The position numbers and the translations under genes were made by a program. A stretch of DNA of 64,000 bases from Chrysomallon squamiferum (Eukaryota > Animalia > Mollusca): contig CM022673.1 of assembly GCA_012295275.1 (NCBI GenBank), positions 16,988,001 to 17,052,000 on the forward strand, in the 5' to 3' direction. Under the pieces are notes generated by a model. The model saw only the letters and a program-made list of their open reading frames with translations. It was not told where the DNA came from and did no database searches. Below are positions 27,608-54,389 of this stretch, in pieces. Every line of letters begins with the position of its first letter. Positions within the stretch are counted from its first letter, which is position 1.

Positions 27608-27671
27608 CCATTTGCGTAGACACTGTCCGTAAAACCAAAAACGTCACAAATGTATGGCGAATGACTCAGAC
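27608..27671 (-). CDS. Unidentified gene: exon carrying probable start codon (ATG 27611-27609 plus one base)
   Basis: Acceptor ctttag|, ends AAATGG|GTAAAT. Confidence 0.5.
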
Positions 27672-29302: not shown

Positions 29303-29396
29303 ATGTCGACTATTACATATACTAAAGATTTCTTTTTATGGTGCATGTCTGTTATCTATCTGTTTGCATTTTCTTCGTTATATGTGCAGATACCAG
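29303..29396 (+). CDS. LMF2: LMF2 exon 1
   Basis: ATG at 29303; [31 protein letters not shown](G); donor CAG|GTACGT, phase 1. Confidence 0.93.
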
Positions 29397-32300
29397 GTAC
29401 GTTTAAATTTATCAACACAATATTTTGAATTATTTTTTTATTTTATTACAACAGTATAGGTATGTGTATTTCTGCCGGAACTGCGTCCGCCATTTTCTGC
29501 CAAATCCGTGTGATCGGGATTTCCCCGATGGCGAGTGGTGTCTCTGCGTAAATCGCTTCTCGTTACTCAGGGGTTGGGAGTTTCGGTTATCCCTGATGGT
29601 ATAATTAGCGGGAAATTCCCGTATACTCACTCGTTTTCGAATTTTTCAATTCGGTCAATTGGTTCGTTTCGGAGGAGAGTTCGAAAATTTGTTTCGTATT
29701 CAACACGTTAAAATCGGTCGTTTTCGATATCGGAGGATAATCTAAGATAGATGGAGGCGAAGAACAATATTTAATTTTATTATATGTGAATTTATATTGA
29801 AATCTGACACAGCAGCTGAAAAAAACTGCACACGCCGGACAGAGGAGCTGTAACATCGAAATGGCTTCAAAATCAAACATGGCGGATGAAAATTCAAGTG
29901 AAACAGAAGTGATTTCTACCCTCGATTTTTAATAGCTTGCATTTTTAATAGCTTGATTTGAGAGGACTAGTTACCATCTATCTTCAGTCCAAATTTCACT
30001 AATAAAATTTCATTATTAAGAAAGTTACATGCATTTTAGTGAAAAACAATAGGATTTTGGTTACGGCATTGTAATGCAAATGGCGGAAATGCATTAAATA
30101 ATAGGACAATTAATTAGTGTTAATTGAAAACGTTAAAATGCTGTAACTTCCTTAATACTCAACAGAATCACATGATGTTTGTTGTCTTTTATAGGGTTTT
30201 TAGAGTTCTTTTCAGCAATGTTATTTATGTTGAAGTTGGTAGTGTTGAAGTTGGTAGAATTTTTTGTCCACATAAATTATTGTTTGTTAGGTTGCTGGTA
30301 CCTTAATTAATAACTTCTTTTTAATTTTTACAAATATAATCGATAGCAGAGATTGGCATTGGTCTTCACTGAAAATTTCATCAAGAAAGCTTGCTTATTA
30401 ACAAAGATAGAGGGGAAAATGTTAAAATATTACTATTTTTGGTCACAAACCTCTAATGACTTATATAGCGTTTAATCGGAAGAAAAAAATTGCTTTTCAG
30501 GGGGTTTAAAATTGCTGCTACTTCCTTAATTTTTTACATATTCACTTGATCTTGGTATCATTTTAAAGTGGTTTACAAACTCTACCCAACTGTCTTATTT
30601 ATTTTCAGATTAGTGGGGTTTGAAAAATTTATCCACATACCTAAACAGTATTTTACATACAATAAAAATCGATCATCATCATGATCATGGGTTAGTCATT
30701 TCAGCGGCCCAATTTCAGATTTTCACTTTGCCGGTTCTGTGAACTCCCAAATGTAGTTCTCATTTATAATTTTGAATAGTTATTTTGTATTTTCTAAAGT
30801 ATCATTTTGACCACAACCATTTTGTTTCTCAGCTAAATTTATTTCGATGAGCTGTAAGCCTGTAGGCAGTGTAACAGGGTTAGCGAGAGTACTGCTATTA
30901 GTATTACCCTTTTCAGTGTAACGAGTGTTAAGCTTTAGGTCGTTGTGAGTAGTAACTAGAGATGGTAGAGTAAAAATAAAAATAAATGAATAACGATCTT
31001 TGACATTACTGATTGTTTTCGGTCGGGACATTGTGTCATGTTATAATGTCATTTGTGCAAGAGATTTGAAAAGCGCATGTTCCAAATTTGGAGCTCATGT
31101 CAGTGTCTAACACCAGTTCGACTATTGTTATATAATATTTTATTATTATGTTGCTTTTAGTAAATTGGTTAATTGTTAATTTACAGTATTTATTTTTAAC
31201 TTATTTATTTAAAGGGAAAAATAAATTTATAGTAAAAAATTTGTCTTTAAAATAACAATAAATAAAGTTTACACTTTAATATTAATATTTGATAACAGAT
31301 TTTATGCAGTGAAACACTTGATATATATTCAGCACAGGTGCAAAACTGATTCACTCTTTCTCTTGCTATTTCTCTCTCTCTGTATACATGGCAAACATTT
31401 AAATTTTTTTTATAGAATCTCTTATCAAAGTGATATTAAATAAGCTAAATAGCTGTAAATTTATATATATATATATTATTTTATTTTGTATCCAGTTACG
31501 GTAAACAAAAATAATAGTTTATCAATATACATAATCAGGCAGAATCATGAAGAATGAGCTTTCATTTATATTATAGGCATATAACTAAATTTTATTTTCT
31601 CAAAATCACATATAAAGAAACAGAAATAATAAATCTTTTAAATATATATCTCCAGTGGTTTCCCCAGCATTTGTGAAAGGGATGGTGGGAATCAGTGTAA
31701 CTGGTGCAAGTTAAACGAAGGAATGGTACAGAAAATGTTCAAATTACTCCTATAAATAATTGCATCAAATGCATTAACTGTTAACAAATTTATTTTATTT
31801 GCAATTACATAAAATCAAAGTGTCTGTGTCTGGTGAGTTTTGTCCAGATGTTCTGTGAATTATATTCTTTACATGAATATATTTATACAAAATAATAAGC
31901 TTCTGTACATGTTGTATATAGGTGTGTGTGTGAAATGTGAAAAGTTTTCATTGCACTGAAAGTAAACGATTGCCACACAATGTGATAGTGAATACAGAAT
32001 AGTTATGAGAATGTGACTTTAATTGTCAATGCGCTGTTGATAATAATTATTTTTATATTAAGTGGATCGAGCGCATATGTGTTTTCAAAGGATGGAGATA
32101 ATATTTTAAAAAGTTATTTAGGTATCTAGAATAAAATAACTGCTGACCCCAAAAGTGCAAAACAGTGGCATGACAACCAGTCTAAATAAACGGATGCAAG
32201 ATATTGTATTGATAAATATTATAATATGCAACATGTATGCATACCTAAAAAAATAAAAAATTAAAGAAATAAAAATTAAGACCTGTGACTGAGTCCAGTC

Positions 32301-35300
32301 AGGTCTGAATAGTATAAAATATTATTCCATTAATTACATTTTTGCTGAGTTTATATTAATGTTTTAGTAAATATATGCAATGTACCTTAATGAACCAGAC
32401 AATAAAAAATTGTAGGTAAGTTTGCAGCTGTTAATGTCAAAATGAAAACCAAAACCAGAATTATCATCTACCATTTATAAAAAAAAGTTTAATATTGGAA
32501 TTTATGTATTTGACTCTTTGGACAGAACAAGAGAAGAAAAAAAAAAAAAAAAACAATTTGGTTCAATAATTAACATTAAATATAGAATGGTTTACAAGGA
32601 TAAATTTGTTTAATATTAGCTTGTTAAGCTTTTTTTTTTTTTTTTTTTTTTATTTGTTTATTTTTATTATTATTTTAGTAAATCAGTAAAAAGTAATATT
32701 AGATGTTTTAAATTATTTAATATTGTTCTAAATTATAAAGTATTATTCTTCTGTATCACATTAGAGAATTATAGACATTCAGAAATTATTTACTTTTGAT
32801 AGCTTTGACTTAATTTGTCTTCTTCTTTTTTATTCAGGCTTGTATGGAGATAATGGTTTGCTGCCTGCTCGCAATGCACTGACAACATGTAAGTTGCATG
32901 TTTTCATGTTTGTTAAGGGATTACATTAATTCTGTAACACCTCCTAAACAATGTAAATTAGTTTTCTTTTATTTAAAAGGTATCTGATTGCCTTTAATAC
33001 ATAAAATTAATATTATTGTTTATCACAAAATGTAATAATTCTAAATAAAAGTATTTTTTTTATATAAAAATAGCTGTTGATTAATTTATTTGAAAACTTC
33101 TTTTCACAATTGTCAACACTTGTCAACTAATATTTAATGTTTATTTATTCATTTGCTTATAAAATCCTTGTTTAAATGAACTAAAATGTAAATATTAAGT
33201 AAATAAAAATAAAGAAACAAATTTATATATATAAATAATAATAATATAAATAATAAAAGAAAGAAATAATTATATTTTACAAGTTATTAATAATTTGTAG
33301 CGGCAAACTCATGGCAGGAACTTCTGGAAGGACAACCAACTCTTCTCAAACTGACGCCAAAGCTTGGACTTGATATTGTTACCTCCATGGATCTGTTGTG
33401 TTTGGGTGGAATTTTGATTTCTTTCTTCTGCATGGTGTCAAGGAGAGCTCGTGATGTTGTGTCCTTCACCTTGCTGTGGATGTTGTACCTCTCACTGTAT
33501 CAGGTTAATCAATTTTCTTACTTTTAAATATTTGTGTTTAACTACTTGAATAAGTAATATCTGAGAAAAATAAAGAACATGATATTTTTGTGTCAGTTTA
33601 AATGTGAGTTTATTTAGTTACTGATAAGAAAAGTTGAACCAAGATCTTCTGTGTGAGAATCAAGCTAACAGTGACTGGGAAAATATTGTTAGTTATTAAC
33701 AGATTGAGTACTTGGTAGCTAATAATAATATACAAAATGAATATTTGAATATGTATGTGCTATATCTGTGTGTGTATATATATATATTGTTAGTTATATC
33801 AAATCATTTGATTACTGAATTAAAATGTTTTAATATTTATAGAATTGTTTCCCTTTATCAAGTTTATGGTAATATATATTAAGAATTCTGTAGCAAGGTA
33901 AACAGATGTTAAAGATATTGAGATAGATACGTTTTGCTGGAACAGATGGTTTGAATATCTGGAAAGGAAATTATTTACATTTTATTCCCAATCCTTATCA
34001 TACAGATTAGTCTATAATACTAAACTACTGGAATAAAATTATCACTATTTGTATCAACAAACCTTGTTTTATTCTTAGAAACAAAGTAAACAGATTTTTT
34101 TTTTCAAGGATTTTAAATATTAAAGAACAATAACAACAGTAATAATACTGTGCAACCTCCCTGTATTATGTGTATCAGGCTCTAGAGGGTAAATGTTTTA
34201 CTAATGAGAATTGAATGTTTTATTTTCACTGTATTATTATATTATATTTCTTAAGTAAACTGACTTTCATAGAATAATTTATTTAATTTTTCTTTCATAT
34301 AGATCTCAGCTGTTTTCTTTTATGGTTTAATTATCACATAATTGTTAATCGTTTTGATATAATTGTTAACTGTTTTGTAAGAAAATGTCACCATAAATAT
34401 TAAATTATTAGGCCTACTAGTGACAATTATCTTATTATTATAATTTTATTTTGTTTTACCTTTTCAGGTTGGCCAGACTTTTATGTGGTTCCAATGGTAA
34501 ACACTTTTTAAATTATTATTTTTTACATTTTCAGTGTTCAGAAATCTTTAATAAATTTATTTTATTTTACTTTACTTTTTAAAAAAATATTTCATTACAG
34601 AATAAATTATCAACACATTTTCTTTCATTCCTCCCTCTATATTAAACTGAAAACCACTAAAACTAAAATAATTTGTTGAAAAATCAGACTAGTTGATAGT
34701 GGCAAAAACTTTCATTTGTTATTATGGTTGCCTTCCATAAAAATAAAATGATCATTTGGAAACCTATATTTATTTTAGAATGTACTTAGTAATGATTTGA
34801 AGTATTTTTTTATATTATTGTTCCTTGAGATGCCTGTCTCACTTGTATAAAACTTTAACATTATTATTTTAATTCTGCTCCCAGGGATATTCTGTTGCTT
34901 GAAGTCGGCTTTTTAACTTTAATTCTGGCACCTTTTAACTTCAACCTGCTTCAGAAGAGTCGCGAACCCACTCACCACCACCACGACACCATCAACATGT
35001 GGCTGGTGAAGTGGCTGCTGTTTCGACTTATGTTTGCTTCAGGTGTTGTCAAACTGACGAGCAAGTGTCCCACCTGGTGGGGTCTCACAGGTAACATACT
35101 TTATTTACAGGTAATCAATATTATTTGTTTCATTCATCATCATCATGTATACTATGACAAGAGAGTTTTATGTACTGACAAAAAAGGAGAATAAATCCAA
35201 CATATATATAAACATATTTTAAAATCCTAATACCTAATCCATGAATCTGACAGCCAAGCAATGATTTATGTATGTTACAGGGAATATGTAAAATTCCTGA

Positions 35301-36754
35301 AAATTTAAAAAAATACAGTGGTACCATAACTTATGAATTTAATTTGTTCAGTGGCTGAGCCTGTAACTCAATATTTCGTATCAAATCAAGTTTTCTGACT
35401 GAAATTAATTGAAATACCATTAATCTGTTACTTCTTCTCAGCACTGTCCTTTGCACACACTTTTGTGGAAATGTGACAAAATACTGCACAAAATGCAAGC
35501 ACAACACAACTGAGATGCTTCCACAGTGAGGTACCCACATGAAGTAAATAAATGAGACACTGGAAGCTGGGCAGATGTTGTGTTGTTTGTTGCATCAACT
35601 AGCAGTGGCATATCTGAAGCTTGCTCGTTACTCATATTTTGGCTCACAACTCAAAGCAAAAAATCTGCTCATAAGTTGGAAAACTTATAAGCTGGTGCAC
35701 TCATAAGTCAAGGTATCACTGTATCTGTAATCACTGAACTGTAAGTGATGTTCCTAGAGTTGGGTGATTGTCTGTGGGAAACTTAGGCATCCACAGAACC
35801 AAACAGTCCCTATGTTTTATATAACCCTTAACTGGACAGTTAATCTATTATAGTTTTTTAATATCTCTGTTTTATCATTTGGAAAATAACAAATAATAAC
35901 TAAAATAACATTGTGATGTTATATATTTTATGTTTCTTTCAGCTCTTACATATCACTTTGAATCTCAGGTAAGCTGTTCAATTTTTTTTTTTTTGACTAT
36001 TGACAGGTGTCATTTTATGTTCATGAAATAAAAATTGTTTTGTTTTAGTAGCTGTTATTTCTGATGTCTGTGACTTCAAAACGTGCTGAAATTTTATACA
36101 TTTTATAATTTAAGTTTTTTATATAAAAAAATTCCATTATGTGGACATAATTTTATTTTTCTTATTCTTTGCATAATTAATATTTATATATTCAAAAATA
36201 ACATGAAACATTCAGATTTTAATTGACTTTTCTGATAAAACTGTGTTTTCGATTTCGGGACATTTCAACATCTTTTGTCATTTCTGTGTTTTTCTAACAC
36301 TAAGTTAATTAAAATCTATTTCTCTTTTTTATTGTATTTGAGTTTTTCTTATATTAAATTAAAATCCATTTTCCTCTTCAGCGTATTTGAGTTTTAATAG
36401 GATTCAATTAAGACGTTTCCATTTTTTAGTTTTTTTTTTTTTCTTGCACGAAAGTAATTTAAACCTATTTTTCATTTCAGTACATTTGAATTTTTACAGC
36501 ATGAAACTAAGATGTCTTTACCATTTTGTTTTTTGTAGTATTAGAATTTATCTAATTATAAGCTTTTTTCTGTTTCAGTGTATTCCAACACCTTTAGCCT
36601 GGTACTGGCATCAGAGTCCAGTCTGGTTTTTAAAACTGGCATGTGTTCTGACATACGTTATAGAGATTCCACTAACCTTTCTCTTCTTCATACCAATACG
36701 CTCTCTCAAAATGTTTGCCTTCATCTCTCAGGTAAGATTTGACGCATGCACACA

Positions 36755-36813
<59 letters not shown>

Positions 36814-39800
36814 ATATCTTTGGTTTTATAAGATTCCATAAGAAGGTTTCATGTGCAGGCCATGATTGGTTGATATTTTTAAGCAGGAATCCCATGTTTG
36901 GAATATTCTGTACTGAAGTCACATTTTGTTTGGATATGGATAGTTACTGATTGAAGTCTCAGTGAGTTATCTGTAGAAATTGTATATTATATACACATTC
37001 TATTTGTTTTGCAATTAATACTCAGGAAACCACTAAGCTTTGTGCCAGACTTTGTGACATGACTAGAGTAACAAAACCTTGACATATTTTAACAAATACG
37101 TTAGCACTTGTCAAACATCAGTTACCACCTGCTCACCTGTTTTACATGTGAACCTGTTGACTTTATTTTATGTTTTATGCGAGACTAATGATTGATTATT
37201 AAGGATTATATAATTTACTAGCATAATTTTAAATTAAAAAAATAATTGCTGTTTAAGTTTTTTTCATTTATTTATTTATTTATTTTATATATATTTTTAT
37301 GTTTTAAGTTTTATATTTTTCAACATTCAGTCACATATGAATTCTATTCTTATTAACCAAATGTGATAAGTGCATATCATGCCATATGACTTTAAAATTT
37401 AAATGAAATTTTAAATTAAAAAGACTTAACGATCCCATCATACTACTCAAGATTTAATGTTTTTGTTTTTCCTTTGTAAAACATTTCTTCTTTTTTTAAT
37501 CTAATTATTATTTTGTGTTTAACATACATTTTTTTATAACTTTCTTTTCTTAGAAATGTTAAAATAAAGTGATGTAAATTAGAAGAATCACATGACATAT
37601 CCAATACTTACAAAAAAAAAAAAAAAAAAACCCTCAAATAGTAAGTTGTTTTTCAGCTACAGTTGTTAACAGTATTAATGAACAAAGAGGAAATTGTTTT
37701 CATAAACAAAAAAAAATGTTATTATGTTTGGCAGCAGTATTTGTTTTTAAGATACAAACAGTTCCAGCAGTATTATTTTCCATATAATGCAGTTTATACA
37801 CTATTCAGTCACAGTGTTAAACATACTGATATGTATCATGTATGTAATACAAATACTGACAGTAGAATTTTATATGTATTATTTTCCCCACCGTTAAAAT
37901 AGTAAACTAGATTGCATTTAATTTATTATCATTTTATCTTTTAGAAAAAGGTAAATAATGATAATAATAGATAAAAAAATAATTTATAAAATAATATACA
38001 TTTTAATTTTTATCCTATAAACATACTTTTAGTATTAATGTATGAAATAAACAGAATATTCTTCACCAATCACAGATGGTACAACTGATTCTAGTAGTAA
38101 ATTTATATTTAATTTAAAATTGATATAGATCAGAGTGGATAACAAACAAGGTTAGGTAAATATATTTTGTATGTTTATTAATTTTTAAATTTGGCTGTTC
38201 ACTGACAAGTATTTACTGGTATTTTCAGTTTAATTCTCTTAGAATTTATTTTTCTTTGTCAGTCTTGTAAGTATTCCATGCAAATGTATTCTTATAGAAT
38301 CAATTAGACAAAAGTTGTTGCTTTGTTGTTTAATTAGAAATGATCGAATGACTTAAATACCAGTAATTTAGTTATTTGAATAGCAATAATTCAGTCATTT
38401 GATTGACAGTAATTTCAGCCTTTTAAATTAAAATGATTTAATCTTAATTTTAGTCATTCAGTTACTGGTATTTACATCATAAATAACAGTAATTTAACAA
38501 TTTAAATAATAATAATTTAGTCATTTACATAACAATTTGAAATAATAAAAATTTATTATTTTAAATACCAGTAACTGAATTACTAAATATAAATGCTTTA
38601 GCCATTTAATTGAAATAATTAAATAAATTTGATTTAGCCACTTGATTGAAAGTAATGGTGTTATTTAAATACAAATGACTTTGAGCTGTCTGTGCCTGGT
38701 CTGCTACATGTAGACTCTGTTAGATGAGAACTCACTCTCATATGTCTTCCTGCTGACTCAAACCTGACACATGGAGATGTGGCAACATGAGACAGAAACT
38801 CTGGACTTTTCATTGGAATGTTGAGAGTCCAGTATAGTCCAGGATAGCGAATCAGCATGGAGTTGATTATTTGAATGAATTCTGTGGCAAGCTCCTGTAT
38901 GGAATGAAAGTCAGGACCTCGGACAAACAGTTTTACAGAGTCCACTGTTTTGATCATGAGGACTTTTTCATTGTCTGATTCTGCATATACACAGTCACAC
39001 CAGTCTATTCTCTCTAGAACAAGGTCTTGGATGGAAGAAACCATTTTTTCAAAGAGGCTCTTAGGAAAATGGAAGGGAAAGCTATAAACTACTGAAAGTT
39101 CTTTGTGATGAGACTCAACATTTTCAGTCCACAGTTCTGACAGTTCTGATATATTTCCATCATCCTTGTTGTACCATGGTATGACCATCAGCGGACGTAT
39201 GTATAGTCGACAAGTTGGAACATCTGGCTCTGGAACAGAATAACACAGGTCAAGCAAGGGAAGTAATTCTAACAGATCTTCCAGAGTGTAATTGTCCATG
39301 TTTTGATAAAACCACAGGCAATTGAGAAATGGTCTACAAACTTGTCCTTTCAGCAAAAACATTTTTCTTGCTTCCTCAAATTCCTCTTCACTCAGATTTC
39401 CTTTGCTGCTGAAAATGTTGTTCATGGGTTTCTTCATGAATTCTTTGATGTCATGACGATACAGAGAAGATACTATTTCAACCAGAATCCTTGGCTTATG
39501 GAAAAGAATTTCTGAAAGTCCTGTGACATCAAAATACCACAGAACCTCACCAATATCATGTAGATAGTTGATGCAGTCTTCAAGGTTTTTGTCTTTAACA
39601 TTGTAGTCCTTGCCTATTTCTACAACCTGATCCCAAAGGAGGTAGTTTCCTCTTTGTTGCTTCAATTTTGAACACAGCTTGCCCCAGGCAGCAGGAATCA
39701 CTCGCTGGGCATGAGGAAACAGATTTATATCTATAGCAAGATGCTCCAACTCATCCACAAGCTGCTGGATTCCTTCAAGAGTTTGAGAAGTACTTATTAC

Positions 39801-42800
39801 TGAAATGTTTGGTAATACTTGTACATGACTGGATGAAATTTCTTTCAGTTTATTTCTACGTACTGTGAGCAGTTTGATTGCTGCATTTTCAGCTTCATAA
39901 TGTTCTTTTTCTGTGGCAATTTGTATTTCTGCTAATTCCTTCTCAACCTCTTTGAGTTCATCTGCAACAGTCTTTCTGTACTTAGCCAGATATTTCTGTA
40001 ATAATTCACTGACTTCTTCCACTAGACCTTCTCTGTCATATTCAGACTTGCCTCCTTTTGACTCTGGTATGTCCATCAGATCACACTGAGTAGCTATCAC
40101 TTTGATTATAGCACCAGGAGCATTTGAGTTCAGAATATCTATCCACTGTCCTAAAGCTCTGTGGAAACGACTGGGGGTGAAGGAAGCACCATTGAAAACT
40201 AGTAAAATGAGAGCTTTGGAGTCTAAAAACAAAGGTGTTGTTACATGATAAATTTCAGAACCTCCAAAATCATTTAGCATAAATTCCACATTATTGTCAG
40301 TTTTCCAAGGTCTCTGTCGAAGAACTCTGGTTTTATCTTTTGGTCCTTTGGTCATCTTTGACCGTCTGTAGACTAGAGTGTCAACAAGACAAGTTTTTCC
40401 TGCTTGAGATTCTCCTAAAACCAAAATCTTTTGTCTTTGCAGGTTTTCAGTCTTTATGATGGCAAGCTTTTTAAGATAGTCAAAAATCATTTCCGGTTTT
40501 TCTGTTCTCCAGATCTCAGGAGGTGGTTGTTCCAGTGGGTTTTTGTACAGCCACAGCCCGTACTTCTGTAGTTTCCTATAGCTGTGAGCCACTGTGAGCT
40601 TTGACAGGTTGTACAACTTCATGGGAAGCTGTTTGATGAGATTATTAGTTAGATCCAGTGTCTCCAACTCAGTCAATTCACAGATTTCATTGGGTAAAGA
40701 TGTCAGCTGGTTCTCCTCAAGAATCAGCTTTTTCAATTTGTAAAGTGTCTCAATTTCTTTGGGAATCTGACTGATTCTATTTCTGGACAGATCAAGTTCT
40801 TCCAGATTAAAGAGCAGACCAATAGTGTCAGGAATCATGTCAAAACTGTTGTTGTTAGCTCTTAGGATTTGAAGATTGATTAGACGACCAATCGATGGTG
40901 GAATTTCAGTCATTAAATTTGAGGAGATATCTAAGACTCTCAGATGTTTTAGACCATATAGTGTGTTAGGTAAAGTCTGGAGAAAGTTGTGACACAAATA
41001 GAACTCTAGTAAACCAGTGTTATACAGGTCTGGGACATTGTTTATCATTGTATTCTCTAGGTCCAATACTTCTAAGGCGGGTAACTCAAACACTACAATG
41101 GGAATGTGTTCAGATTTGATCTGCCCTTTCCTCAGCAGATTTTCCATATAATTATCAATGACACCACAAAAGCTCCTATAGTTTATAGCCAGGACTTTGA
41201 GATTTGGAATTTCAGGTAGAGTTTCTGGCAGACTCTCAACTGCATTACCCCACAGGAGTATTTCCTCTAACTCCTGACAGTAAGCTATCTCTGGAGGAAG
41301 AGAGGAAATGTTTGTCTGTTGCAGATTCACTTTTCTTAAAGCAGTAAGGTTTCCAATGTCTGGTACAAGGATGTTGATTTTGTTTCGACTGATATCCAGT
41401 GTCTTGAGACTGGTCAATTTCCAGACAACTGGAGGAATGAAAGGCATGTTGCACTCAGATATTTTCAGATGCTGCAGACCTGTCAACATTTCCATGTCTG
41501 CTGGGAGACCTCCATAATCCTGTGAGTGGCTACATCTAAGTCCATTTCTGCTGAGATCCAGTTTAGTGAGAGCGGTCAGCTTCTTTATGTCTGGAGGTAT
41601 TGATCGAAGATTATTAGAGGCCAGGATTAGTTCACCAATATCCTTGGCTGGGAAATGAAAAAATAAAGCCACATTTAGTCTTTGAAATATAACAGTGTAT
41701 TATTTTCCTACACAAGTAATGGAAAAACTTATATCAAAATATTGTAAATTTCTAAATATTTATGGTCAATTCATAACTCATCTGAATTATATATTTAACT
41801 ATTATTTGTTTAGCAGAGAAAACTGTTATTGATAGTTATAACAGATCTGCTAACAAAATATCAACATATTATCAACAAATTCGATTTACCTGTAAACAGA
41901 GATGAAGGAATTCCTGTCATTCCTTGTCCAGACATGTCAACAATCTTCAAACCATCATCAGTCAGCTCTGCTTGATTTGGAGTTTGCCGTTTCTGTGCTG
42001 ATATTCGGCCATCTCTGGAAGTTTTGGGTGGGGACTGAGAGGTTTGGCGGCCATCTTTATTTTTTTTCTGAGCCGATCTTGATCTTGCTGAACCTTTACC
42101 TCTTACAGGTGACTTTGAGGGTGATTTAGAGGGTGATTGGCTCTTGCTTCTGGAGGTAGGCCTCTCAGGGGTTCCTCTCTTGGACCCAGCACTCCGCTGT
42201 TTAGGTGAGGCTGATTTTCGCATTGGAGATGTGCTGCTTTTCTGAGAGTCTGGGTTGGGGGATTGCTTCTTGCCAGTTAGAACTTGTGGAGGACTTCCTT
42301 CAGACATATCTGTCTCTCTTTTCTCAGTAGTAGACCTGGAAGAAAATGGAAAAGGATGTTAAAGGAAATAATTTTGTTTATCTTAGATGTTTTATTACAG
42401 GTATTATTTATTTATAAATGATGCTAAGATTGTGTTAAAATGGTTAAATAGCAAAATTGAGATGGATCACAGTTTCAGATTTTTGCAGTAACTATCAATA
42501 TACCATATGTACTTGCAAACACAAATACAATTATATGTTTGTTATTAACAGTTTCAATTTAAAACAATGATACTTATTTCTAGAAAGGTTACTTAACTGA
42601 ATACCTTCAGATATATTATTTTCACACTGTTAATGATAGTAGTCCTTTTAGCTAAAAAATATGACTATAAACAATAATGTAATTTATCCTGAATCTGAGA
42701 CACTGTTAAATTCTCTTCACTTCAGTAGTTAATTAAGTGTATTTTATTTTATGAGACATTGCACCAAGTAGTAATAAATAGTTTATTGTCATGTTAATAA

Positions 42801-45800
42801 CAGTGTTGATGTAATCAGCTCATTTACTGGCTCTGCTGTTGTATACAAAATGAGTCTATTGTCTGTGTTTGTAAAGGTGTGAATAACAAGTATGGCTGAC
42901 AATTTGGTTCTGTGTTATGCATGAGCAAACACAATAATTTCAAAACCTGGTATATGTTTTAAGTACTGTTAACATTGAGGTAACCTGACAAGAAATAAAA
43001 TATATTAGTAAAATAATAATATCAACAGTAATTGTAAACAGAATGACAATAACATTCATAAATATTGAAATAAAAAAGTATAAAATATATATATAATACA
43101 TAATACTCTCAGACATATGCAGACAAATATATAGAAATAAATATACAAGTATGTGAACACATGCACCTACTTCCACCTAGAGGTATATAAACACAGGTAC
43201 ACATGCATGCAGATAATACTTTAACCATACATATGAAGAAAAACAGGTTAATTTGGTAAAGGACACACACATTAAATAAGAAAAGACTAATTTAAAGGTA
43301 GAATATTATCTTAGTATTTCAAAAAATAGTAGAACAATACAAATGTTAATAAAAATTTATCTGTACTGTTCAAAGTACTTACCTTCTTGTTTTACGCACC
43401 AAAGACCCGTATGTTCAGAAGTTGACTAAATACACGTATCATATTCCACATTAAATAGTTCCATTAGCTTTTCATATTTCCCATGCTACCGGTAATACAT
43501 AAGTTTTGTACATTAGCACTGACAGTTTCAAATCTAGCTCTGTAATTGTTTACTTTTCAAACTTAGGCTTGTTGACTGTTAAGTTGTGACCAAGACAACA
43601 ACAAAGATACCAGCTCCACTAAAGCTTGCAAGTCTGAGAGCTTTGTATTGGCTAAGAGGACTTAAGTCTTGCCTTTGTAACAAAATGTTAACTGGGATTT
43701 GCTTCGTGAAAGAAGCTATGGTAGATGTTAATCCTCTGGGGTTAAACAGATGAATAGTATACCAAGTCATGATTGGGAAGTGTTTATCAGAGAACTTAAT
43801 AATTGTTAATGGATTGAAGTTCATTTATGAATAGTTTTGTTAATATTTAAATCTTGTTTTGATTTTGTATTAAAGTTATATATTTAAAAAGAAAAAAATT
43901 AATTTTAATTTTTAATGTTGATTAATAATCTGGACAGAAGAATACTTAGAATTATTTTACAAATTAATAATAATATTTAAAGAAATATCATTAAGAAACA
44001 TGCTTTATTAATTAAGTTGTTTTGTTGTTTTTTGTGAGGTTTTTTTAATATATTTATTTTATATGTGTATGTGCATTCAAAGTATACAACAAGCAGTTAA
44101 TTTATTATAAATTGTCTGATTTGTTGTTAATAAAAACAAACTAATATCTCTGCAGTAAACAAAAGACCAGTCACTGTTAGATTTAGTTACATTGTTGACA
44201 ATAAGTAAGTATATTTTCAGTTATATTTTGTTCAGAATTTTCAAAACATTTCAGATTAATATGTTCAGCCACATGAATTTAACATTCACAGGTCTTGAAT
44301 GTTTTCTTTCTGAAAAAGAATGGTGCAGATCATAAATCTTTTGCCAAGAATGCGGTGGGATTATGTTTAGTGTGGACTTGAATATGCATGGAGTAATTTA
44401 GCACTGTTAAAAAAAAAATTAAAAAATTGTTTGAATCATAAATCAGTCTGCAGTGTATTGCAAAATTAGGTTCAGTATGTAAGGAGTTAATTTTGTATTT
44501 TTATAAAGTTGTGTGTAAACTGGACTACACCATATAACTGAATTATGATGCAATTCAGTCTAATATTCTTGGATCCCTAGATGTTTCTATAAACAAAAAT
44601 GTGAAAGTGTGCACAGTATATTGTAATTTAGTCTATGTATATGCAGAGTATTTTGTTCAGAGAGGTTACGTGGTGAATAGTTATTACATTTGATTTCACC
44701 TCTATTGATAAATAATATGACCTATCTAAAAATAGTTTTAATTTGTATGTTCCTTTGGTTTAATGTCTCTTTTTTTCTTTCACATTAGCAGATAACAGTA
44801 TAGTTATTCTTTAATTCAGTTTCCTTGGTTTTATCCAAGTAATGTAAATGTGCATGGACAAAAACACAGACACAGATAGTCAGACAGACAATCAGACATA
44901 CCCACACATGCATGCACATAATGCATAAACTTGCATATACATACACACACATTCAAACACACATAGACACACAAAGACATGCCGTTATTGTAACACTAAC
45001 ACATACACCAGTTATATCAAAGGTGTTTAGTATTATCTGGAGTGGTAGTTTGGGTTATCCCAGTATCTAAGGTAAACAGAATGTGTGTCTACATGCAGAC
45101 AGATTATAGCTACACACAGAATGGTTTCAGGCTTGAGTAGATTACTATAATCTTATAACATGTTAGACGAGTACTGACTTGTATTTACACGATCTCTCAT
45201 AATAACTGTATTTTACTACCTGTATTAAATAGTCACACTTAGCTTGTAAAATTACCCCTCAGTGCTGGATTATTGAACAATGTGGTATGTGATGCCCTGT
45301 TTTGTTTTGTGGTCCTTTGTGGCTGATTAATCTTTAAATCATCAATTTACCATTAAAATGTTCTGCACTGACAAATGTTTTTGCAGTAATGTTCTGATGT
45401 AATAACATTTTTATAACACTAGTCACATATACAAAAAAATAAAAAATAAAGAAAATAAAAAGAATAAATAAATGTAAAAATATAAATAAATAACACAAAA
45501 AATGAATAAATAAATTTAGAAAAAGTTAAGAGTGTAAAGATCTCGGGGACCAAGTACACATATGTTAATAATATCTCTGTAGGTCTTTGTCAGCTAATCT
45601 TGTTTTCGTTGTTGTCAGAGGCAATATAGTGAGTAGTGGATTAATATAATACACTTCCAATATGACCACATTAGTGTGTGTTGTGAAAAAAAAATTATTT
45701 ATTGATTATGATTTAATAAGTTTTTTTATTCACACTTGATAGGTTGGCCAGGGTCTTATGTCTATTGATCTTTCTCAGTCAGTTTATAAAGAATCAAAGT

Positions 45801-46597
45801 TTAATCCTGGGTGTATATATTGATTTGTTGTATGTCTCTCCATGTCATTGTAGTCCCATGGGTGTTTGATTTGAACAAGACCCCACCCCACCCATAATAA
45901 ATAATAAATAATAAAAATAAATATATTAACTAAAATTTCCTTTTTTATATTTTTATGTTTTAGTATGATTTATTTATTTATTTATTTATTTAGGATCACC
46001 ATATTCTTGCATTCCATGCTAATCCATTGAGTTTACACTGTGATGCAATAAATTATTTAAGGAACTTCTTGGTTTTATTTTAATACTGAATATTAACTCT
46101 GGAAAGGACTGATATCAAATCATAACCTTTCTTTTAACATTTAACATACCAGAAATGTTGATATAATAATGAAATTTGAAATCCTGAGACTATCATCTTC
46201 TGAATTTGATATTAAAAACCTTCTTCTTTCTAAATTTTATTTTCATTGTCTTGTAGATGTTGTTAATTTACAGAATATTTTCACTCTAGTGATTAAAATA
46301 GTTTCTTTAAAATATTGAAAATAATCACAACCCTCCTGTCCATAAAACTCCCCAAACAAAATGCAGTGAAAAAGACAAGTGTAAATTTTTATTGTGTTAT
46401 ATATTATTATTTTTTTCTTTCAGGTTTTACTTCAAGTTCTGATTCTTGTGACAGGAAACTACAACTTCTTCAATCTCCTCACCATTGTGTTGTGTTTCTC
46501 TCTCCTCGATGACAGCTTCTTTTTCAAATCTACATCGGGTAAAGGTACTTTATTTATTTAATTATTGTTGTTTATTTTATATATGTATATACTAGTG

Positions 46598-46641
<44 letters not shown>

Positions 46642-49600
46642 ATGTATTTTTTATGTTTTAAAATTTAGTTAACTTTCAAGGAAATAAATTTCAAATTAAA
46701 AAAAAAAATAAAAACAGGAAAGAATTATGTTATCATTAATACTTAAAATCAACATTTGCATTCCATTTGCACAAACTTGTGATCATATTTCCATTTTCAT
46801 TCCTTTGATTATTTGATTTGTTTATTACTAACTACATGCTTCTATTTTCTGTGTATATATGTCTAATCAGTTTAGATGAAATTCTAGGGCATTTCATTGT
46901 TATTTTTGTTTTTTCACCAGGTGGAAAAAAGGATTGGTCCATCATCAAATTCCTTGCTGAACTGATTGCCCCAGTGGTCATTCTTGGTTACATTAGTTAT
47001 GGAACAGTGAAATACTTCAAACTTCATCTAAATCCAGATTACACTGTCAAGTCCAGTGTAGGTCAGTACTAGACAGTTAGTGATATAGAAGATGTGAGGT
47101 TTGTTATAGGAAATGTTGATTTTATTAATTATTTTGGTCACACACTTATTTATCAATATAGGTCAACATAGCCATAAGTTTCTGAAGTCAAGATAGATCA
47201 ACAGTAGCTATTGAAGGATACATTGGTCATACAGCTGTGTATTCAGTATATTTCTGTAACAGTCATTGTTGGTTACATTATTCACTTGGCCATTGTTCAA
47301 CATAGGTCAACATTAGTAATTGTTGGATATGTTGGTCATCAATCTCTGAAGTCAAGATAGTAGTTATTGAAGGATGCATTGAGCATACAGCTATGAAGTC
47401 ACTGATAGTCATTGTTAGATACAGTGGTCACACATTGCAACGTCAAGATAGATCATTGATAGTCATTGTTAGATACACTGGTCACACATTATGAAGTCAA
47501 GATAGATGACTGATAGTCATTGTTAGATACACTGGTCACACATTGAAGTCAAGATATGTCACTGATAGTCATTGTTAGATATAGTGGTCACACATTATAG
47601 AAGTCAAGATAGATGACTGATAGTCATTGTTAGATACACTGGTCACACATTGCGACGTCAAGATAGATCACTGATAGTCATTGTTAGATACACTGGTCAC
47701 ACATTGTGAAGATAAAAATGGTCACTGATTGCCATTAGTTGATACTTTGGTCCACAAATTTTGTTTTTTTATTTTGTTTTATTACAGAAATGTTACTTTT
47801 GTATTTCAGGTTTCACAGAATTAGAGTTTACTCGGTGGTTACAGTTTATTGTTCCTGTCACCATTCTGATGGGAATTGTCACTCTGGGCTATGAAATAGT
47901 CATGGCTATTCTCAGGTATTTCCCATTATATGTGATCCTCTAAATCAGGTGTGGGCAAACTTTTTAAAACAGGGGCCATATGGATCTTATAGAAAAAGCA
48001 TGAGGGCCAGAATATAAAATGAGAACAAAAAAGATTTCAAAATGTGTATTTTTATGTAAAAAGTAAATTCACTTTTAACAAATGTTAGAAGAGTTAATGA
48101 GATTGTGTTGCATACCATGAAGCAGCAATTCAGTGTCAGGCTTAATTGATGTGGTGCACAAGCAAAGAACGTCATTTAGGTGGTGGTCAGAGAGTTATGA
48201 ATGAAGGCGATACTTTGTATATTGCATTTTTGAGAATAGTTGTTCACAGCAAAATGTGATTCCGAACATAGCTGCAATGTGCTGAATATGTTTAATAAAT
48301 TGTGGAAATTTACCAGATGGAAGGATGACATCATGTAAGAAGGAAAGGGGAAAAGAAGTGCACAACTTAGCTTTTAATTCAACATTGCATCGCATATCTA
48401 CCAACTCCATCAGCAAGGAAGCTGAAGAATCATCCACTGGGATTTCAAAAGGTGCACTGAACAATTTGAAATATGCAGATAGTGGTCGAATACCTTCATT
48501 ACAACTGACATGACATCAATGAGATTTGCAGACTTGCCACATACGGATTCTTGCTGGATGATGCAGTGCAGTTTATGGATGGTCTGATTGTGTCCAAGAG
48601 CCTCACAAAGCGCAAAGAAGCTGCACCTTTATTCTCTCCTGTCACCATCACTTGTTACACTTGCATGACGGGAGAGATCAAGGTAGTGATGTTCCACACA
48701 CTGAAATAAGGCATTGAACATCTCTTTTCCACTGTGGTGCCATGTAATGGAACAATCTCAACGAACTCTTCAGGTACCTTGAGGGCAGAAATAACACCAC
48801 ATATGAAAACAGCCATTTGGGCTGTTTCTTTCATACCAGTGCTATAGTCAAGAGCAAGAGTGAAGGTGACAAAGGTCGAGCACTTACTCTTTAATAAGTC
48901 TTGCTTACTGTCTGACATCTCCTCAACGCAACACTCATATTCTCCATGACCAAACTTTCTGGGCAGATATAATTCATTAGAGTCATGAGACATTCCTTGA
49001 TAAAATGTCCATCAGAAAATAGCTTCATCCGTTGAGCAAGGAGTAGTGAAACTTCGTAACTGGTGCGTGTCACTTTTTCATCTGAGATATCTGTTTACAG
49101 AACATCAAAGTGCCCTTTTCAAGATGGACTGACAGTTTTGCGATGGCATCCTTTGTCTCAGAAGCAGACATTGAAACATGACTGACTGCTGGAAACTGAC
49201 AGAGAGTAAAAAGCAAAAATGCAAAAACCAGTTTGGTTCATGACAGCAAGAAGTTAGCATGGTTCAATTTGCCTGCTTGTGTAACTGAGACAGGATTGAA
49301 ATAATGATCATTATAGTTTGCATATTTTGAGCAGTCATTCAAAATTCAGATGCAGGCATTACTGATTTGATGAGCACCTTCAAGAAGCCTTAAATTTAAA
49401 ACTTGTGTGCGACTTGAGTAAAAAAAATTGCTCTGTCAACTGACTTTATTTCATTGACTTTTATTTTGCTGTCTCGCAGGCTGGATGGCAATGCTAATTG
49501 TGAACAGTTTGGCGGGCCAGACAGTAAACCTTTGCAGGCCAGAGTTTGCCTGCCCCTGCTCTAAATCTACTGTTGTAGTAAATACACTGCATGAATTTGG

Positions 49601-50108
49601 TAACTGAATAAGACATAAAACTTTATTTGTAAATTAGTGAGTAATAATTGCCTGATAAGAAAGTCCTGTTTAAGTAAATTCCTGAGATCTACTGATTTTC
49701 ATTTTCTAAAACTGCTACAAAGTGGATAGTTTAAAATGTAGATTATTGTTTAATGCTGATAGCTTACTGTTTAGATTACTGATAAGTTTAAGATGTAGAT
49801 TATTAGTAAGTGTTGTATTTTCAGGTCGTGCCTGGAAGAACAGAGCACAGTGAAGAAGGGTCTGGCTGTGTTTCAGTGTGTTCTCTTTGGTTCTCTTGCA
49901 GCTGGCATGTTTGCTATTAGCCTGGTGAGTAGCCACTTTACATGCACACAGACACATACAATTATAATCACACACAACCATTTGTATATACAGATACCTG
50001 TTGCATATACCTACACCATAACACAGACACATATAGATACTGATTTATCCTTTATATTACAGACAGACAGATATTTATACAAATGTAGATACATGTATGC
50101 ACGTGCAT

Positions 50109-50173
<65 letters not shown>

Positions 50174-53100
50174 TACATGCACTCATAGGCACACACAGAT
50201 ATATGAATACTGATGTACACTTTACATTTATAGACATACAGATATTCATGCAAACATATAAAGATGAACATGCACAGTCATATCACATCACAGTTTATTG
50301 GAACTTTTGTATATTTATGACAAAGAAAACAAAGTAACAAAAAGAAAACCCTATTACCCTTCCTTACCTAAAAGAAACTGAAAAAATACCTCCCTACAAA
50401 ATCCCCAAAATCAGCATGTACATATAAAAAAATGTTTTTGTTTTTGGCACACATTGTTTGTCCATCCCAGATAGTCTGAATCTTGTGTTTTTCACATCTT
50501 TATCATCAGTGCAATAACACCATTGTACATAAACCCTACCAGTCTTCTGTACTTTGGGTATTAGATATATGTAAAACTGATACATAGAAACCTTCACTGG
50601 TAAATTTGCTATGCTCTGATTTTAGGGTAGTTGTAGGTCCCTATTCATAAAACCTACCAGATGCTGTTGTACACTGTTAAACAAAACATGACTGATTTGA
50701 TTTGTTAAGTTATCCTAGTTAGTTATTCGGCCCAAATATATCTGTTGACCAATATTGTTTATTTTGTAAATAATATGTTGTTAAACACAGCCGGTCCAGA
50801 TACATCTATCAACAGTTATTCATTACCCACTTATTATCTACACTATAAACTCCTATAAACTGTAATACTGACACCTAAAGGTATTTGTTTGAGGTGTCTT
50901 TAAAGTATTCTAACAAATTATTAATTGACCCTGCTCAAATACTATATACATTATAAGTAATATTGACACCTGAATGTATTTTTTTGAGGTGTCATTAAAC
51001 AAGGTGTTCATTCATTTGTAGGTACCCTACACAGTAATTAATAAACACTACCAGAAACGGCTGTCTCCCACTATTCGTCAGTTCCATGTCAAGACCCGGC
51101 CTTTTCATCTCACAAGTGCTTATGGTCTCTTTAGAAGGTACCTCAAGTGCCAGACCAGTGCAGTAAGGCTAGGAAATGGTCCTTTCTTTCTTCTTTTAAA
51201 AAAAAAAAAAAATAAAAATATAAAATAAAAAAAAAAAAAATAAAATCAATATTTCTTTATTTCCAAAAAAAAAAAAATTTAAACTCGACAACTGTTTATA
51301 TATTTAATATGAAATTGTTTGAATTTAGAACAGGGTGAATATTTTTAACACTTCATTTTGATTCATTTATTTTATTCATTAATAAAAATAAATGTGTTGA
51401 AGTCATGTGTATATCATGAAATATGTACGAATGTTTTTTTTCTCTTGCATTAAACTTTTTTAGTAAAACAAAAAAAAATTAAAAATAAATTGTAGAAATA
51501 AATTTAGAATAATGAAACAAAACTAAAAAGATAATAGAGATAATGAAGTAACATGCATAGATACAATAAGACAAATGACCTTGCAAGTAATTAATTTAGC
51601 TAAGTAAAATCAGTGCTAAAAACAGAATTAGCAAAAAAAAAAAAAAAAAAAATAATAATAATAAAAAAAAAAAGAAATAAGAAGGTATTTACATTTTAAA
51701 ATAATGTAATATGCAATTGCACATCAGCAGTAATAAAAAAAGAAACAAAGAACCATTTCCAGTGTCTTTCTGCAGACAGAAAGCATGGCACGTTTAGTAA
51801 ATAATTGTGTTAGACGTTTGTTTATTGAATGTTGTTTATTAATACCTACTGAATCTTTAGTACAAGACACAGGACACACCAGTCCACAGATACCCCTGTA
51901 TCCTTCCTCCTGTAAAACCACACCCACATCCGTAATGGAGCATCAAAGTAAAAATCTGTTTTTGCCATAAGTACTCAGATTTTGTGTTTTCATTGGTAAT
52001 AATCATTGGTTTTAACAGTTTTATTATTATTTTTTTTTTATCCTTGTGAACAAGGTCATGTTGCCTGGATTTTGGTGTTCCGTCTAATACAGTTACGGTG
52101 TTAAGTGTTTTGATTTGTGTATGCTACATGTGTAATTTGCAGGTTCCCCATACAGTCATAGATATGAAAACCCAAGGAACAGTTTGGCCCAGCGTGCGAT
52201 CGTGGCACGAGAAATTTGAACCATTCTTGATCACAAACTCCTATGGCTTGTTTAGATCGTAAGACAATTTGTTTTTGGCATGCTTGGTGTGTGTGTGCAG
52301 ATGTAGATTAGAACACTGCAGAAATAATTAGTAAATGTATTTTCATGTAATAACAGATTGAAGGGCTTTAACAGTAGGAATTTCAGTGCTTTGATAGATT
52401 CAGCCCGGAAATAAAATCATGAAAATAGTTAACACAGATAGTGTGTGGGTATAATTAATAACACTTAGTATTTGGATAAAGTAATGTAAATTAATAATAT
52501 TTTGCATGATGAATAAAATGAATTTACTATGAGTATGTGTGTGTCTGTGTCTATATATAAACCAAGCATTAGTTATAGAAATGATAATTTATAGTTACAA
52601 GTATTTAATGAAAATATTTTTTTAATTTTATTTTATGTATAGCAAAATAACATTACTAAATTCTTTGCATTTTATTAAGAGTATTTTTAAAATGTAACTT
52701 TACTAACAAGATAATAAAAAAAACTACTTTTACAATTATTTGCACCATATTTATCAAATATTTCTAGCTCTCTAATGCTGCTCACACTTTTTTTTTTTTT
52801 TTAATTTAATTTAATTTAATTTAATTTAATTTAATTTTTATTTTATTTATTTTTATTTATTTAATTATTTTATTTATTTATTTATTTTATTATTATTTTA
52901 TATTTTATTTTTTTGTGACTACAAATTAAAATTTCTAATCCAATTTTGTGTCAGGCTGTGGTGGATTATCTCCCTTACTTATCTGTGGTTGGTGTCTATA
53001 GTAATACATGCACAAAATGTTTTTAAGCCTCTGTTTATAGTTTTAATGTTTTGTTCTTTAACTTTTCTTTTTTTTATTACTAACATTTTGTATTTTGTTT

Positions 53101-54314: not shown

Positions 54315-54389
<75 letters not shown>

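What the first reader, a model, noticed from the sequence alone, without database searches (positions are those of the whole stretch)
38661..43500. Intact MFHAS1-like ROCO GTPase gene nested antisense inside LMF2 intron 7
Seen: LMF2 intron 7 (36732-46423, by far its largest) contains a 3-exon - strand gene (UTR exon ending 43383; 42335-41890; 41647-38661) encoding 1134 aa LRR-Roc-COR with no kinase. Established: this architecture and motifs ([13 protein letters not shown], helical insert within Roc, [24 protein letters not shown]) match the MFHAS1/MASL1 branch of ROCO proteins, linked to innate-immune signalling; vertebrate LMF2 is not known to me to host such a gene. Inference: a lineage-specific nested arrangement implying transcriptional interference or anti-correlated expression, and easily mis-annotated as a split LMF2.
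Basis: partly seen in the sequence, partly recalled or inferred. Interest (0 to 1): 0.7.

Follow-up and report, generated by a model that had tools for sequence, protein, structure and literature searches.

The report
Ancient ROCO gene nested inside LMF2
An intact, spliced gene for a kinase-less ROCO (LRR-Roc-COR) protein lies backwards inside intron 7 of the LMF2 gene of what is likely a marine snail; the same layout appears in bivalve-like and annelid-like contigs, so it is likely over 500 million years old, and the protein groups apart from vertebrate MFHAS1 as a likely separate, unstudied branch.

Summary
LMF2 intron 7 (36732-46423) holds a 3-exon minus-strand gene for a 1134-aa LRR-Roc-COR protein without kinase. 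RNA contigs show both ROCO splice joints in 3 of 3 RNA runs laid, and LMF2 exon 7 running into exon 8 in 2 of them. The nesting is not specific to this species. Three contigs from other animals (one bivalve-like, two annelid-like) carry the ROCO orthologue antisense against LMF2 exon 7 or exon 8. In 20 of 21 named species (molluscs, Lingula, Tubulanus) both genes share a scaffold, and six LMF2 models begin at exon 8. The protein is not the orthologue of vertebrate MFHAS1: trees put it in its own group (100/100), AU tests reject the union (p 0.002 and 6e-5), and it lacks the CxxC tail. Its LRRs are better conserved than its GTPase, which fits a fixed cellular partner better than pathogen sensing (inference). 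Interference and anti-correlated expression were not testable. Verdict: a real, old nested pair of the synapsin-TIMP kind, not found in the papers searched. In passing: a conserved mutually exclusive LMF2 exon pair.

The parts
43383..43521 (-). ROCO exon 1 (non-coding); 5' end not defined, at least to 43521
   Evidence: donor AAG|GTAAGT; RNA contig of X2 covers 43381-43521 and joins to exon 2
41890..42335 (-). ROCO exon 2; ATG at 42307; encodes a basic Ser/Pro-rich N-terminal tail (8 SP, 6 [ST]Px[KR], 27 K+R in the first 120 aa) and the start of the LRRs
   Evidence: no Pfam hit
38661..41647 (-). ROCO exon 3 coding part (to stop); 3' UTR runs on to about 38595
40596..41645 (-). LRR region (exon-3 residues 1-350)
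   Evidence: Pfam LRR_8/LRR_14/LRR_4; AlphaFold solenoid; mean identity to 25 relatives 64% (1-170) and 55% (171-350)
40080..40430 (-). Roc G domain, G1-G4: GESQAGKT, conserved G2 Thr, DFGG, TQCD
   Evidence: Pfam Roc E 3e-13; alignment A1
39831..40034 (-). two-helix insert inside Roc, between G4 and G5
   Evidence: predicted helices 538-578 and 584-605; least conserved part, 22%; similar span in vertebrate MFHAS1 and most related ROCOs
38775..39728 (-). COR domain; ends without the CxxC motif
   Evidence: Pfam COR-A; model pLDDT 92; VIA Z 17.5, rmsd 5.5, 249 aligned to C. tepidum COR 3dpt
29303..36731 (+). LMF2 host, coding exons 1-7 (29303-29396, 32838-32888, 33301-33503, 34468-34496, 34885-35090, 35943-35968, 36579-36731)
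   Evidence: open frame and GT-AG; Pfam LMF1; RNA joints for exons 5-6-7
36732..46423 (+). LMF2 intron 7 (phase 0), host of the ROCO gene
46424..55760 (+). LMF2 host, exons 8 to last (46424-46538, 46921-47061, 47810-47915, 49825-49924, 12a, 12b, 53810-53935, 54401-54620, 55019-55130, last exon from about 55685)
   Evidence: Pfam LMF1_C; exons 1-12a are 77% identical to Gigantopelta aegis LMF2 over 446 aa
51022..51137 (+). LMF2 exon 12a, likely mutually exclusive with 12b (116 nt)
52143..52258 (+). LMF2 exon 12b, likely mutually exclusive with 12a (116 nt)

Best explanation
This is an intact, spliced, kinase-less ROCO gene nested antisense in LMF2 intron 7, an arrangement likely inherited from the common ancestor of molluscs, annelids, brachiopods and nemerteans and likely kept passively, whose product is predicted to be a GTP-binding switch that holds a conserved cellular partner on its LRRs. 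Steps. (1) Shown: both genes are whole and spliced, on opposite strands; LMF2 splices exon 7 to exon 8 across the ROCO gene. (2) Shown for one flank each in three other contigs, inferred for the rest (about 0.95): the same intron hosts the orthologue in bivalves and annelids; brachiopod and nemertean show linkage only. (3) Supported by trees (about 0.9): the protein belongs to its own orthogroup (molluscs, nemerteans, brachiopod, rotifer, unnamed others), a cousin and not the orthologue of vertebrate MFHAS1. (4) Inferred from the family (about 0.75): Roc binds GTP and its nucleotide state controls COR-mediated oligomerisation, as in other ROCO proteins; with no kinase, the output is binding of partners. 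(5) Inferred (about 0.6): one main copy per genome and LRRs more conserved than the GTPase point to a fixed endogenous partner, with the basic SP-rich tail as a likely phosphorylation-controlled anchor. (6) Inferred (about 0.6): the nesting persists because neither gene can be moved without a duplication followed by a loss, not because the two proteins work together.
For: Gene structure and RNA joints. Domains and fold: (top Foldseek hit C. tepidum LRR-Roc-COR, E 3e-30). Other genomes' DNA: L001 has the ROCO on + and LMF2 exons 7 to 1 on - at 6272-11913; L002 has exon 7 at 8227-8382; L006 has exon 8 onward at 5793 to about 1059 and ROCO 5' exons from 7063. The intron boundary is the same (phase 0, after SQ, before V/M-LLQ). 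An LMF2 tree puts L001 with heterodont bivalves (99) and L002 and L006 with siboglinid annelids (97) (quick tree, partial rows). Same scaffold length for both genes in 20 of 21 named species, 9 of them under 5 Mb (tally 96); neighbouring accessions or locus tags in 8 species. A duplication in Tegillarca copied both genes (KUTeg_023675/77/78/82). Trees: core group 100/100 on Roc-COR and on LRRs alone; AU p 0.0023 and 6.2e-5. Identity to hagfish MFHAS1 30% (LRR) and 24% (Roc-COR) against 47-55% LRR identity to rotifer, nemerteans, brachiopod and chiton. CxxC after COR in 0 of 28 core rows and 28 of 33 other rows. Conservation by part: LRR 64/55%, Roc 48%, COR-A 48%. No conserved non-coding match between intron 7 and the 13 loci.
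Against: No contig from another species spans both flanks; 3 of 13 loci held LMF2 exons, each on one side. Shared scaffold and adjacent accessions show linkage, not nesting; M. galloprovincialis did not match (98 Mb against 0.49 Mb records, likely different assemblies). No named annelid or cephalopod ROCO of this group turned up, and both searches scored only about 8,000 candidates. The trees are unrooted (no LRRK, DAPK or bacterial outgroup), the core group was drawn, and vertebrate MFHAS1 is represented by hagfish records plus one unnamed relative. G4 is TQCD rather than T[KH]xD. No biochemical or expression data bear on steps 4-6; retention over so long a time is itself an argument for selection. 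Copy number was read from search hits, not from whole genomes.
Confidence: 0.65

Rival explanations
1. The nesting is kept by selection for shared regulation: the ROCO promoter or enhancers in intron 7 also act on LMF2, for example by driving a short LMF2 transcript from exon 8 onward, as the nested ceh-10 does for its host polq-1 in C. elegans.
For: Retention across several phyla at one intron, whereas only 25-31% of orthologous host/nested pairs are kept between human and mouse (PMC11694760, passages). The precedent is in PMC12274878 (abstract). The ROCO 5' end lies about 2.9 kb from exon 8 here and the first LRR exon about 1.3 kb from it in L006. Both mRNAs are in the same libraries.
Against: No conserved non-coding sequence was found between intron 7 and the loci (few informative loci, blastn only). 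The public models that start at exon 8 have unrelated or missing starts and look like annotation splits. LMF2 is an ER membrane protein and the ROCO a likely cytosolic one (recalled and inferred), with no known link.
Confidence: 0.2
2. The protein is an innate-immune sensor or signalling scaffold like vertebrate MFHAS1, and nesting gives it expression opposite to LMF2 through transcriptional interference.
For: Same domain architecture as MFHAS1 (PMC6337361, passages). ROCO proteins are linked to immunity in humans and brown algae (PMC4104024, passages). Interference shapes nested genes in Drosophila (PMC5174743, passages).
Against: Not the MFHAS1 orthologue. LRRs are the best-conserved domain and the gene is not expanded in the hits seen. 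Anticorrelated pairs were rare in mammals, and old nested pairs are reported to have settled. The Aplysia immunome paper mentions ROCO only for TIR-domain proteins and never MFHAS1 in its main text (PMC9334734, passages).
Confidence: 0.12
3. A recent, lineage-specific insertion (for example a retrocopy) into this snail's LMF2 intron.
For: Most of the CDS lies in one 3-kb exon; nested genes often arise as retrocopies (PMC5174743, passages).
Against: The gene has two introns, and the acceptor before the first LRR exon is at the same place in L001, L002 and L006. The arrangement is shared across phyla. Annelid-like copies have further introns.
Confidence: 0.02
4. Assembly artefact, or two separate LMF fragments flanking an ordinary gene.
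For: Some public annotations split LMF2 here; exon 13 of LMF2 is frameshifted in this sequence.
Against: RNA contigs join exon 7 to exon 8; exons 1-12 form one open frame 77% identical to full-length Gigantopelta LMF2; the window has no N; the same layout is in other assemblies.
Confidence: 0.01

Closest known systems
Synapsin-TIMP nested pair (PMC2825198, passages)
   Same: A protein-coding gene held antisense in the same host intron across distant animal phyla, with no shown reason for retention.
   Different: SYN-TIMP runs from cnidarians to mammals; LMF2-ROCO is shown here only for molluscs and annelid-like contigs, linked in a brachiopod and a nemertean, and LMF2 is not a host in the human or mouse tables.
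Vertebrate MFHAS1/MASL1 (hagfish records P0333, P0349; review PMC6337361)
   Same: LRR-Roc-COR without kinase; a 90-residue span between G4 and G5; loose motif likeness.
   Different: Only 30% (LRR) and 24% (Roc-COR) identical; separate groups in all trees; union rejected by AU; MFHAS1 has a CxxC tail that this group lacks; this group has a basic SP-rich N-terminal tail in molluscs.
[quoted passage not shown] Haliotis XP_071104926, Lingula XP_013397007)
   Same: These are the true orthologues: the window protein groups with them and they lie next to LMF2.
   Different: Nothing essential; the name is an automatic label, and I found no study of them in the searches made.
Chlorobium tepidum Roco, LRRK1, LRRK2 (solved structures)
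   Same: LRR-Roc-COR fold: Foldseek E 3e-30 to 6hlu; COR Z 17.5, rmsd 5.5, 249 aligned.
   Different: No kinase, WD40 or ankyrin parts; an extra two-helix insert in Roc; 15-21% identity.
ceh-10 nested in polq-1 (C. elegans; PMC12274878, abstract only)
   Same: Opposite-strand nested gene in a housekeeping-type host.
   Different: There the nested gene was shown to induce a short host transcript; nothing of the kind is shown here.

Membership tests
ROCO proteins | Roc domain directly followed by COR | tested here: met
   Pfam Roc and COR-A above cut-offs; COR model matches C. tepidum COR, Z 17.5
ROCO proteins | G1-G5 nucleotide-binding motifs present | tested here: met
   G1 GESQAGKT, invariant G2 Thr, G3 DFGG, G4 TQCD with Asp kept; G5 only loosely assigned; G4-G5 vary in Roc domains (PMC6337361)
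ROCO proteins | GTP binding and hydrolysis | not testable with these tools
   needs biochemistry
ROCO proteins | COR-mediated dimer or oligomer | not tested
Kinase-less LRR-Roc-COR (MFHAS1-type architecture) | N-terminal LRRs, Roc-COR, no kinase | tested here: met
   the frame stops about 50 residues after COR
Vertebrate MFHAS1 orthogroup | forms one clade with vertebrate MFHAS1 | tested here: not met
   AU p 0.0023 and 6.2e-5; unrooted trees, two vertebrate-type rows
Vertebrate MFHAS1 orthogroup | CxxC motif and tail after the COR core (feature read from the hagfish rows, not from a paper) | tested here: not met
   absent in the window and 0 of 28 core rows; present in 28 of 33 other rows
Vertebrate MFHAS1 orthogroup | long insert between G4 and G5 | tested here: met
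   96 residues here, 88-90 in vertebrate rows, but also 64-120 in most other ROCO rows, so not diagnostic
LRRK1/2 and DAPK1 | protein kinase domain (plus WD40, or death domain) | tested here: not met
   no such Pfam family on either coding exon; transcript and stop defined
Opposite-strand nested gene | whole gene inside one host intron; host spliced across it; both transcribed | tested here: met
   the exact 5' end of the ROCO transcript is not defined
Anciently conserved nested pair (SYN-TIMP kind) | same host intron in distant phyla | tested here: met
   same phase-0 boundary in L001, L002 (exon 7 side) and L006 (exon 8 side); no single foreign contig spans both sides
Young retrocopy | intronless, restricted to one lineage | tested here: not met
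   two introns, one acceptor shared with three other loci
Transcriptional interference pair | mutually exclusive or anticorrelated expression | not testable with these tools
   only bulk contigs of one study; depth cannot rank genes

The most novel reading that the evidence does not exclude
An unrecognised fourth-type animal ROCO subfamily of spiralians, hidden under the label 'MFHAS1 homolog', has been locked antisense in LMF2 intron 7 since the Cambrian because its promoter is shared with the host, driving a short LMF2 transcript from exon 8 that includes the equally ancient mutually exclusive exon 12a/12b, so that the locus works as one regulatory unit.
Probability: 0.12. Interest if true: 0.7.

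Novelty: new member of a known kind. Interest (0 to 1): 0.42.

Why it matters
Nested pairs usually turn over fast (25-31% kept between human and mouse, PMC11694760), and few are known to last across phyla. This one gives a second-type test case beside synapsin-TIMP for whether old nestings are traps or are selected, with many genomes and RNA sets available. It corrects two annotation habits: LMF2 is cut in two at this intron in several public gene sets, and the nested protein is labelled an MFHAS1 homologue although it belongs to another group, so immune or cancer functions should not be carried over. A 2014 review (PMC4104024) states that only deuterostomes have MFHAS1; the result agrees with that in the strict sense while showing a conserved kinase-less ROCO in spiralians that it does not cover. 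The protein is a compact natural model of a kinase-less Roc-COR switch. None of this is a new mechanism.

Tried and rejected
Own-genome search: no genome is held for this window, so copy number in this species is untested. X5 (kind unknown, second study) shows none of the splice joints and barely covers the ROCO coding part; the tool warns that such a hole proves nothing, so I drew nothing from it. Contig depths (LMF2 above ROCO in all three runs) were not used to rank expression. Of 13 loci, six (L008-L013) are other LRR proteins and four (L003, L004, L005, L007; 1.7-4.0 kb) hold the orthologue but no LMF2 exon. The third protein search gave only 10 hits and no named annelid, cephalopod, ecdysozoan or deuterostome member of the core group; absence there is not shown. 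Several deep core rows (P0210, P0223, P0227, P0252, P0202, P0208) have no names; two ESM Atlas searches gave only generic ROCO and MFHAS1 clusters. The idea that COR-B is cut short and cannot dimerise was dropped: Pfam COR-B covers only model positions 2-78 in Lingula, but the COR model aligns to the end of the C. tepidum COR (629-940). Top PDB sequence hits to LRRD1 of the sperm axoneme and SHOC2 are LRR-only likeness and were not taken as evidence of a ciliary role. No Rfam match in 29000-56500. No conserved non-coding DNA between intron 7 and the loci. Earlier findings of this scan: none in three look-ups. Literature: LMF2 + MFHAS1 gave 2 papers, seen as listings only, on human disease topics; ROCO + MFHAS1 + mollusc 0; the two full names together 0; searches gave no title or abstract on this pair or on the LMF2 exon pair. 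The library lacks most subscription papers, and supplements of synteny papers were not searched.


Full report
Observation. The window is A+T-rich animal DNA without N. The host gene on the + strand is LMF2: Pfam LMF1 and LMF1_C hits, and exons 1-12a form one open frame of 446 aa that is 77% identical to Gigantopelta aegis LMF2. The closest named ROCO relative is from Haliotis, so the source is likely a marine gastropod; no genome is held for it. Intron 7 is 36732-46423, 9,692 nt, the largest of 15 gaps measured. On the - strand it holds a 1,012-codon stop-free frame. Pfam gives LRRs, Roc and COR-A above their cut-offs and no kinase.

Transcription. Five public runs hold the stretch, four on record as RNA from one study. 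I laid three RNA runs and the fifth run. Both ROCO introns are skipped in 3 of 3 RNA runs, with CT..AC ends, which fixes the - strand; one contig of X2 runs from 38601 through exon 3, exon 2 and exon 1 to 43521. LMF2 exons 5, 6 and 7 are joined in 3 of 3. The laid stretch did not reach exon 8, but in X1 and X2 the LMF2 contig continues at 36733 with letters found in the window only at 46426, the start of exon 8; X3 had no such row among those printed. Seven RNA variants listed in the ROCO CDS are four silent and three conservative changes (45 further variant rows were not printed). So the gene is intact and expressed, and LMF2 splices over it. Contigs cannot give levels or cell types.

Is the nesting lineage-specific? 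No. A scan of metagenome contigs with an alignment of the ROCO gave 13 loci, seven with the orthologue. Three also hold LMF2 exons, all antisense. L001 has the ROCO followed by LMF2 exons 7, 5, 3, 2, 1. L002 has it followed by exons 7 and 5. L006 has exon 8 and all later exons upstream of the ROCO 5' exons. The boundary is the same: phase 0 after SQ in L001 and L002, and an acceptor before MLLQ in L006, against ISQ and VLLQ in the window. A quick LMF2 tree puts L001 with Ruditapes, Mya and Dreissena (SH-aLRT 99) and L002 and L006 with Lamellibrachia and Ridgeia (97); these rows are partial, 17-47% of columns. No foreign contig spans both sides. For named genomes I compared the scaffold length given for the ROCO and for LMF2: identical in 20 of 21 species with both records, including a chiton, Lingula and Tubulanus, nine of them on scaffolds under 5 Mb. 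Accessions or locus tags are neighbours in Aplysia, Lymnaea, Liolophura, Mizuhopecten, Physella, Bulinus, Nucella and Tegillarca. Of 23 LMF2 records that I picked largely for odd length, six begin matching at the exon-8 start (Candidula, Nucella, Bulinus, B. pfeifferi, M. coruscus, Lamellibrachia), and a B. glabrata piece ends near exon 7. The split of these phyla is older than 500 million years (recalled). LMF2 and MFHAS1 are absent from the human (13,089 rows) and mouse (7,561 rows) host/nested tables of PMC11694760, where control genes were found (supplement search; one table and the PDF were too large to read).

Is it MFHAS1? In architecture yes, by descent no. A search of 50%-identity representatives with the Roc-COR part returned the orthologues first and vertebrate-type MFHAS1 far down: P0333, named hagfish MFHAS1, and P0280, unnamed, 50% identical to it. 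A FastTree of 148 rows, a careful IQ-TREE mixture tree of 44 rows chosen from them and (two searches were unfinished runs with the same split) and a tree of the last 275 LRR residues alone (30 rows) all set the window protein, molluscs, Lineus, Tubulanus, Lingula, Brachionus and several unnamed proteins apart at 100/100, while hagfish MFHAS1 sits with a Branchiostoma protein and other ROCOs (99/97). Forcing the two together is rejected (AU p 0.0023 under LG+G4, 26 rows; 6.2e-5 under the mixture model, 20 rows). Limits: no outgroup, the group was drawn after the first tree, and Brachionus has a long Roc-COR branch. Identity to hagfish MFHAS1 is 30% over the LRRs and 24% over Roc-COR, against 47-55% LRR identity within the group. 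A CxxC motif after COR is in 28 of 33 outside rows and 0 of 28 core rows (of the five outside rows without it, two end at the COR edge). The insert between G4 and G5 is shared with vertebrate MFHAS1 but also with most other rows. The review PMC4104024 (passages) says only deuterostomes have MFHAS1; that is consistent.

How the protein likely works. AlphaFold gives a confident LRR solenoid, a Roc domain with a two-helix insert and a COR domain (mean pLDDT 85; COR alone 92). The best structural matches are C. tepidum Roco, LRRK1 and LRRK2. G1, G2, G3 and the G4 Asp are kept. For ROCO proteins, C-terminal COR mediates dimers, and human MFHAS1 binds GTP with low GTPase activity and changes oligomer state with nucleotide (PMC6337361, passages); I infer the same here. 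Across 25 relatives the LRRs (64% and 55%) and the LRR-Roc linker (73%) are better conserved than Roc (48%), COR-A (48%) and the insert (22%). Most named species gave one cluster; Tegillarca and Patella caerulea gave two copies. This pattern fits a fixed endogenous partner better than a diversifying pathogen receptor (inference). The N-terminal tail is basic and SP-rich in molluscs, less so in nemerteans; I read it as a likely phospho-regulated anchor (inference).

Why it stays nested. Three hypotheses are standard: co-regulation, interference, neutrality (PMC5174743, passages). In mammals most pairs show no relation and anticorrelation is rare (PMC11694760, passages); old pairs are reported to stabilise (PMC13343718, passages). 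I found no conserved non-coding DNA (weak test). I favour passive retention at about 0.6, with shared regulation as the main rival; a nested gene can drive a short host transcript (PMC12274878, abstract). The data here cannot decide this.

Comparison and novelty. The closest precedent is TIMP nested antisense in synapsin from cnidarians to mammals (PMC2825198, passages). The LMF2-ROCO pair is a new member of that kind as far as ten searches of an open-access library show; it is visible in public annotations and may be listed in synteny supplements that I did not search. The Aplysia immunome paper does not name it in its main text (PMC9334734, passages).

Side finding. LMF2 has two copies of exon 12, both 116 nt and starting in phase 0, so that using both or neither shifts the frame. 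RefSeq isoforms X1 and X2 differ only there in 4 of 4 molluscs checked, and the annelid-like L006 has both copies. This is a likely ancient mutually exclusive pair; it was not checked by reads in this species.

Verdict. Real, intact, old and unremarked, but built from known parts with no new mechanism shown. Interest 0.42.

Noticed in passing
window 51022-51137 and 52143-52258 (+); L006 4152-4265 and 3695-3820 (-): Duplicated LMF2 exon 12 (116 nt each), likely mutually exclusive; RefSeq X1/X2 isoforms of Gigantopelta, Physella, Aplysia and Liolophura differ only there, and an annelid-like contig has both copies. One B. pfeifferi model includes both. No paper on it.
   Followed up: partly
window 53810-53935 (+): LMF2 exon 13 has a 1-base frameshift relative to Gigantopelta LMF2 (two tblastn frames), which stops the frame early; likely an assembly error, not checked by reads.
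   Followed up: partly
L004, L005, L006, L007: In these contigs the ROCO orthologue is split by extra introns, whereas the window, L001 and L002 have one long exon: intron gain or loss inside a nested gene.
   Followed up: no
P0023, P0188, P0085, P0096 (Tegillarca granosa): Locus tags 023675 (LMF2), 023677 (ROCO), 023678 (LMF2), 023682 (ROCO): the pair appears twice in a row, by tandem duplication or an uncollapsed haplotype.
   Followed up: no
Octopus and Argonauta LMF2 were found but no named cephalopod ROCO of this group; loss in cephalopods is possible but the searches were capped.
   Followed up: no
window about 27300-27630 (-): A gene head-to-head with LMF2, about 1.7 kb upstream of its ATG; a short first coding exon and a charged low-complexity second exon; no Pfam hit.
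   Followed up: partly
window 48195-49011 (-): Broken ORFs in LMF2 intron 10 that look by eye like a DNA-transposon remnant (recalled likeness); no Pfam hit.
   Followed up: partly
window 47399-47756: Tandem array of a 54-bp unit, 6.7 copies, in LMF2 intron 9.
   Followed up: no
P0210, P0219, P0223, P0227, P0252: Deep, unnamed members of the same ROCO group; their phyla would fix how far beyond Spiralia the group reaches.
   Followed up: partly
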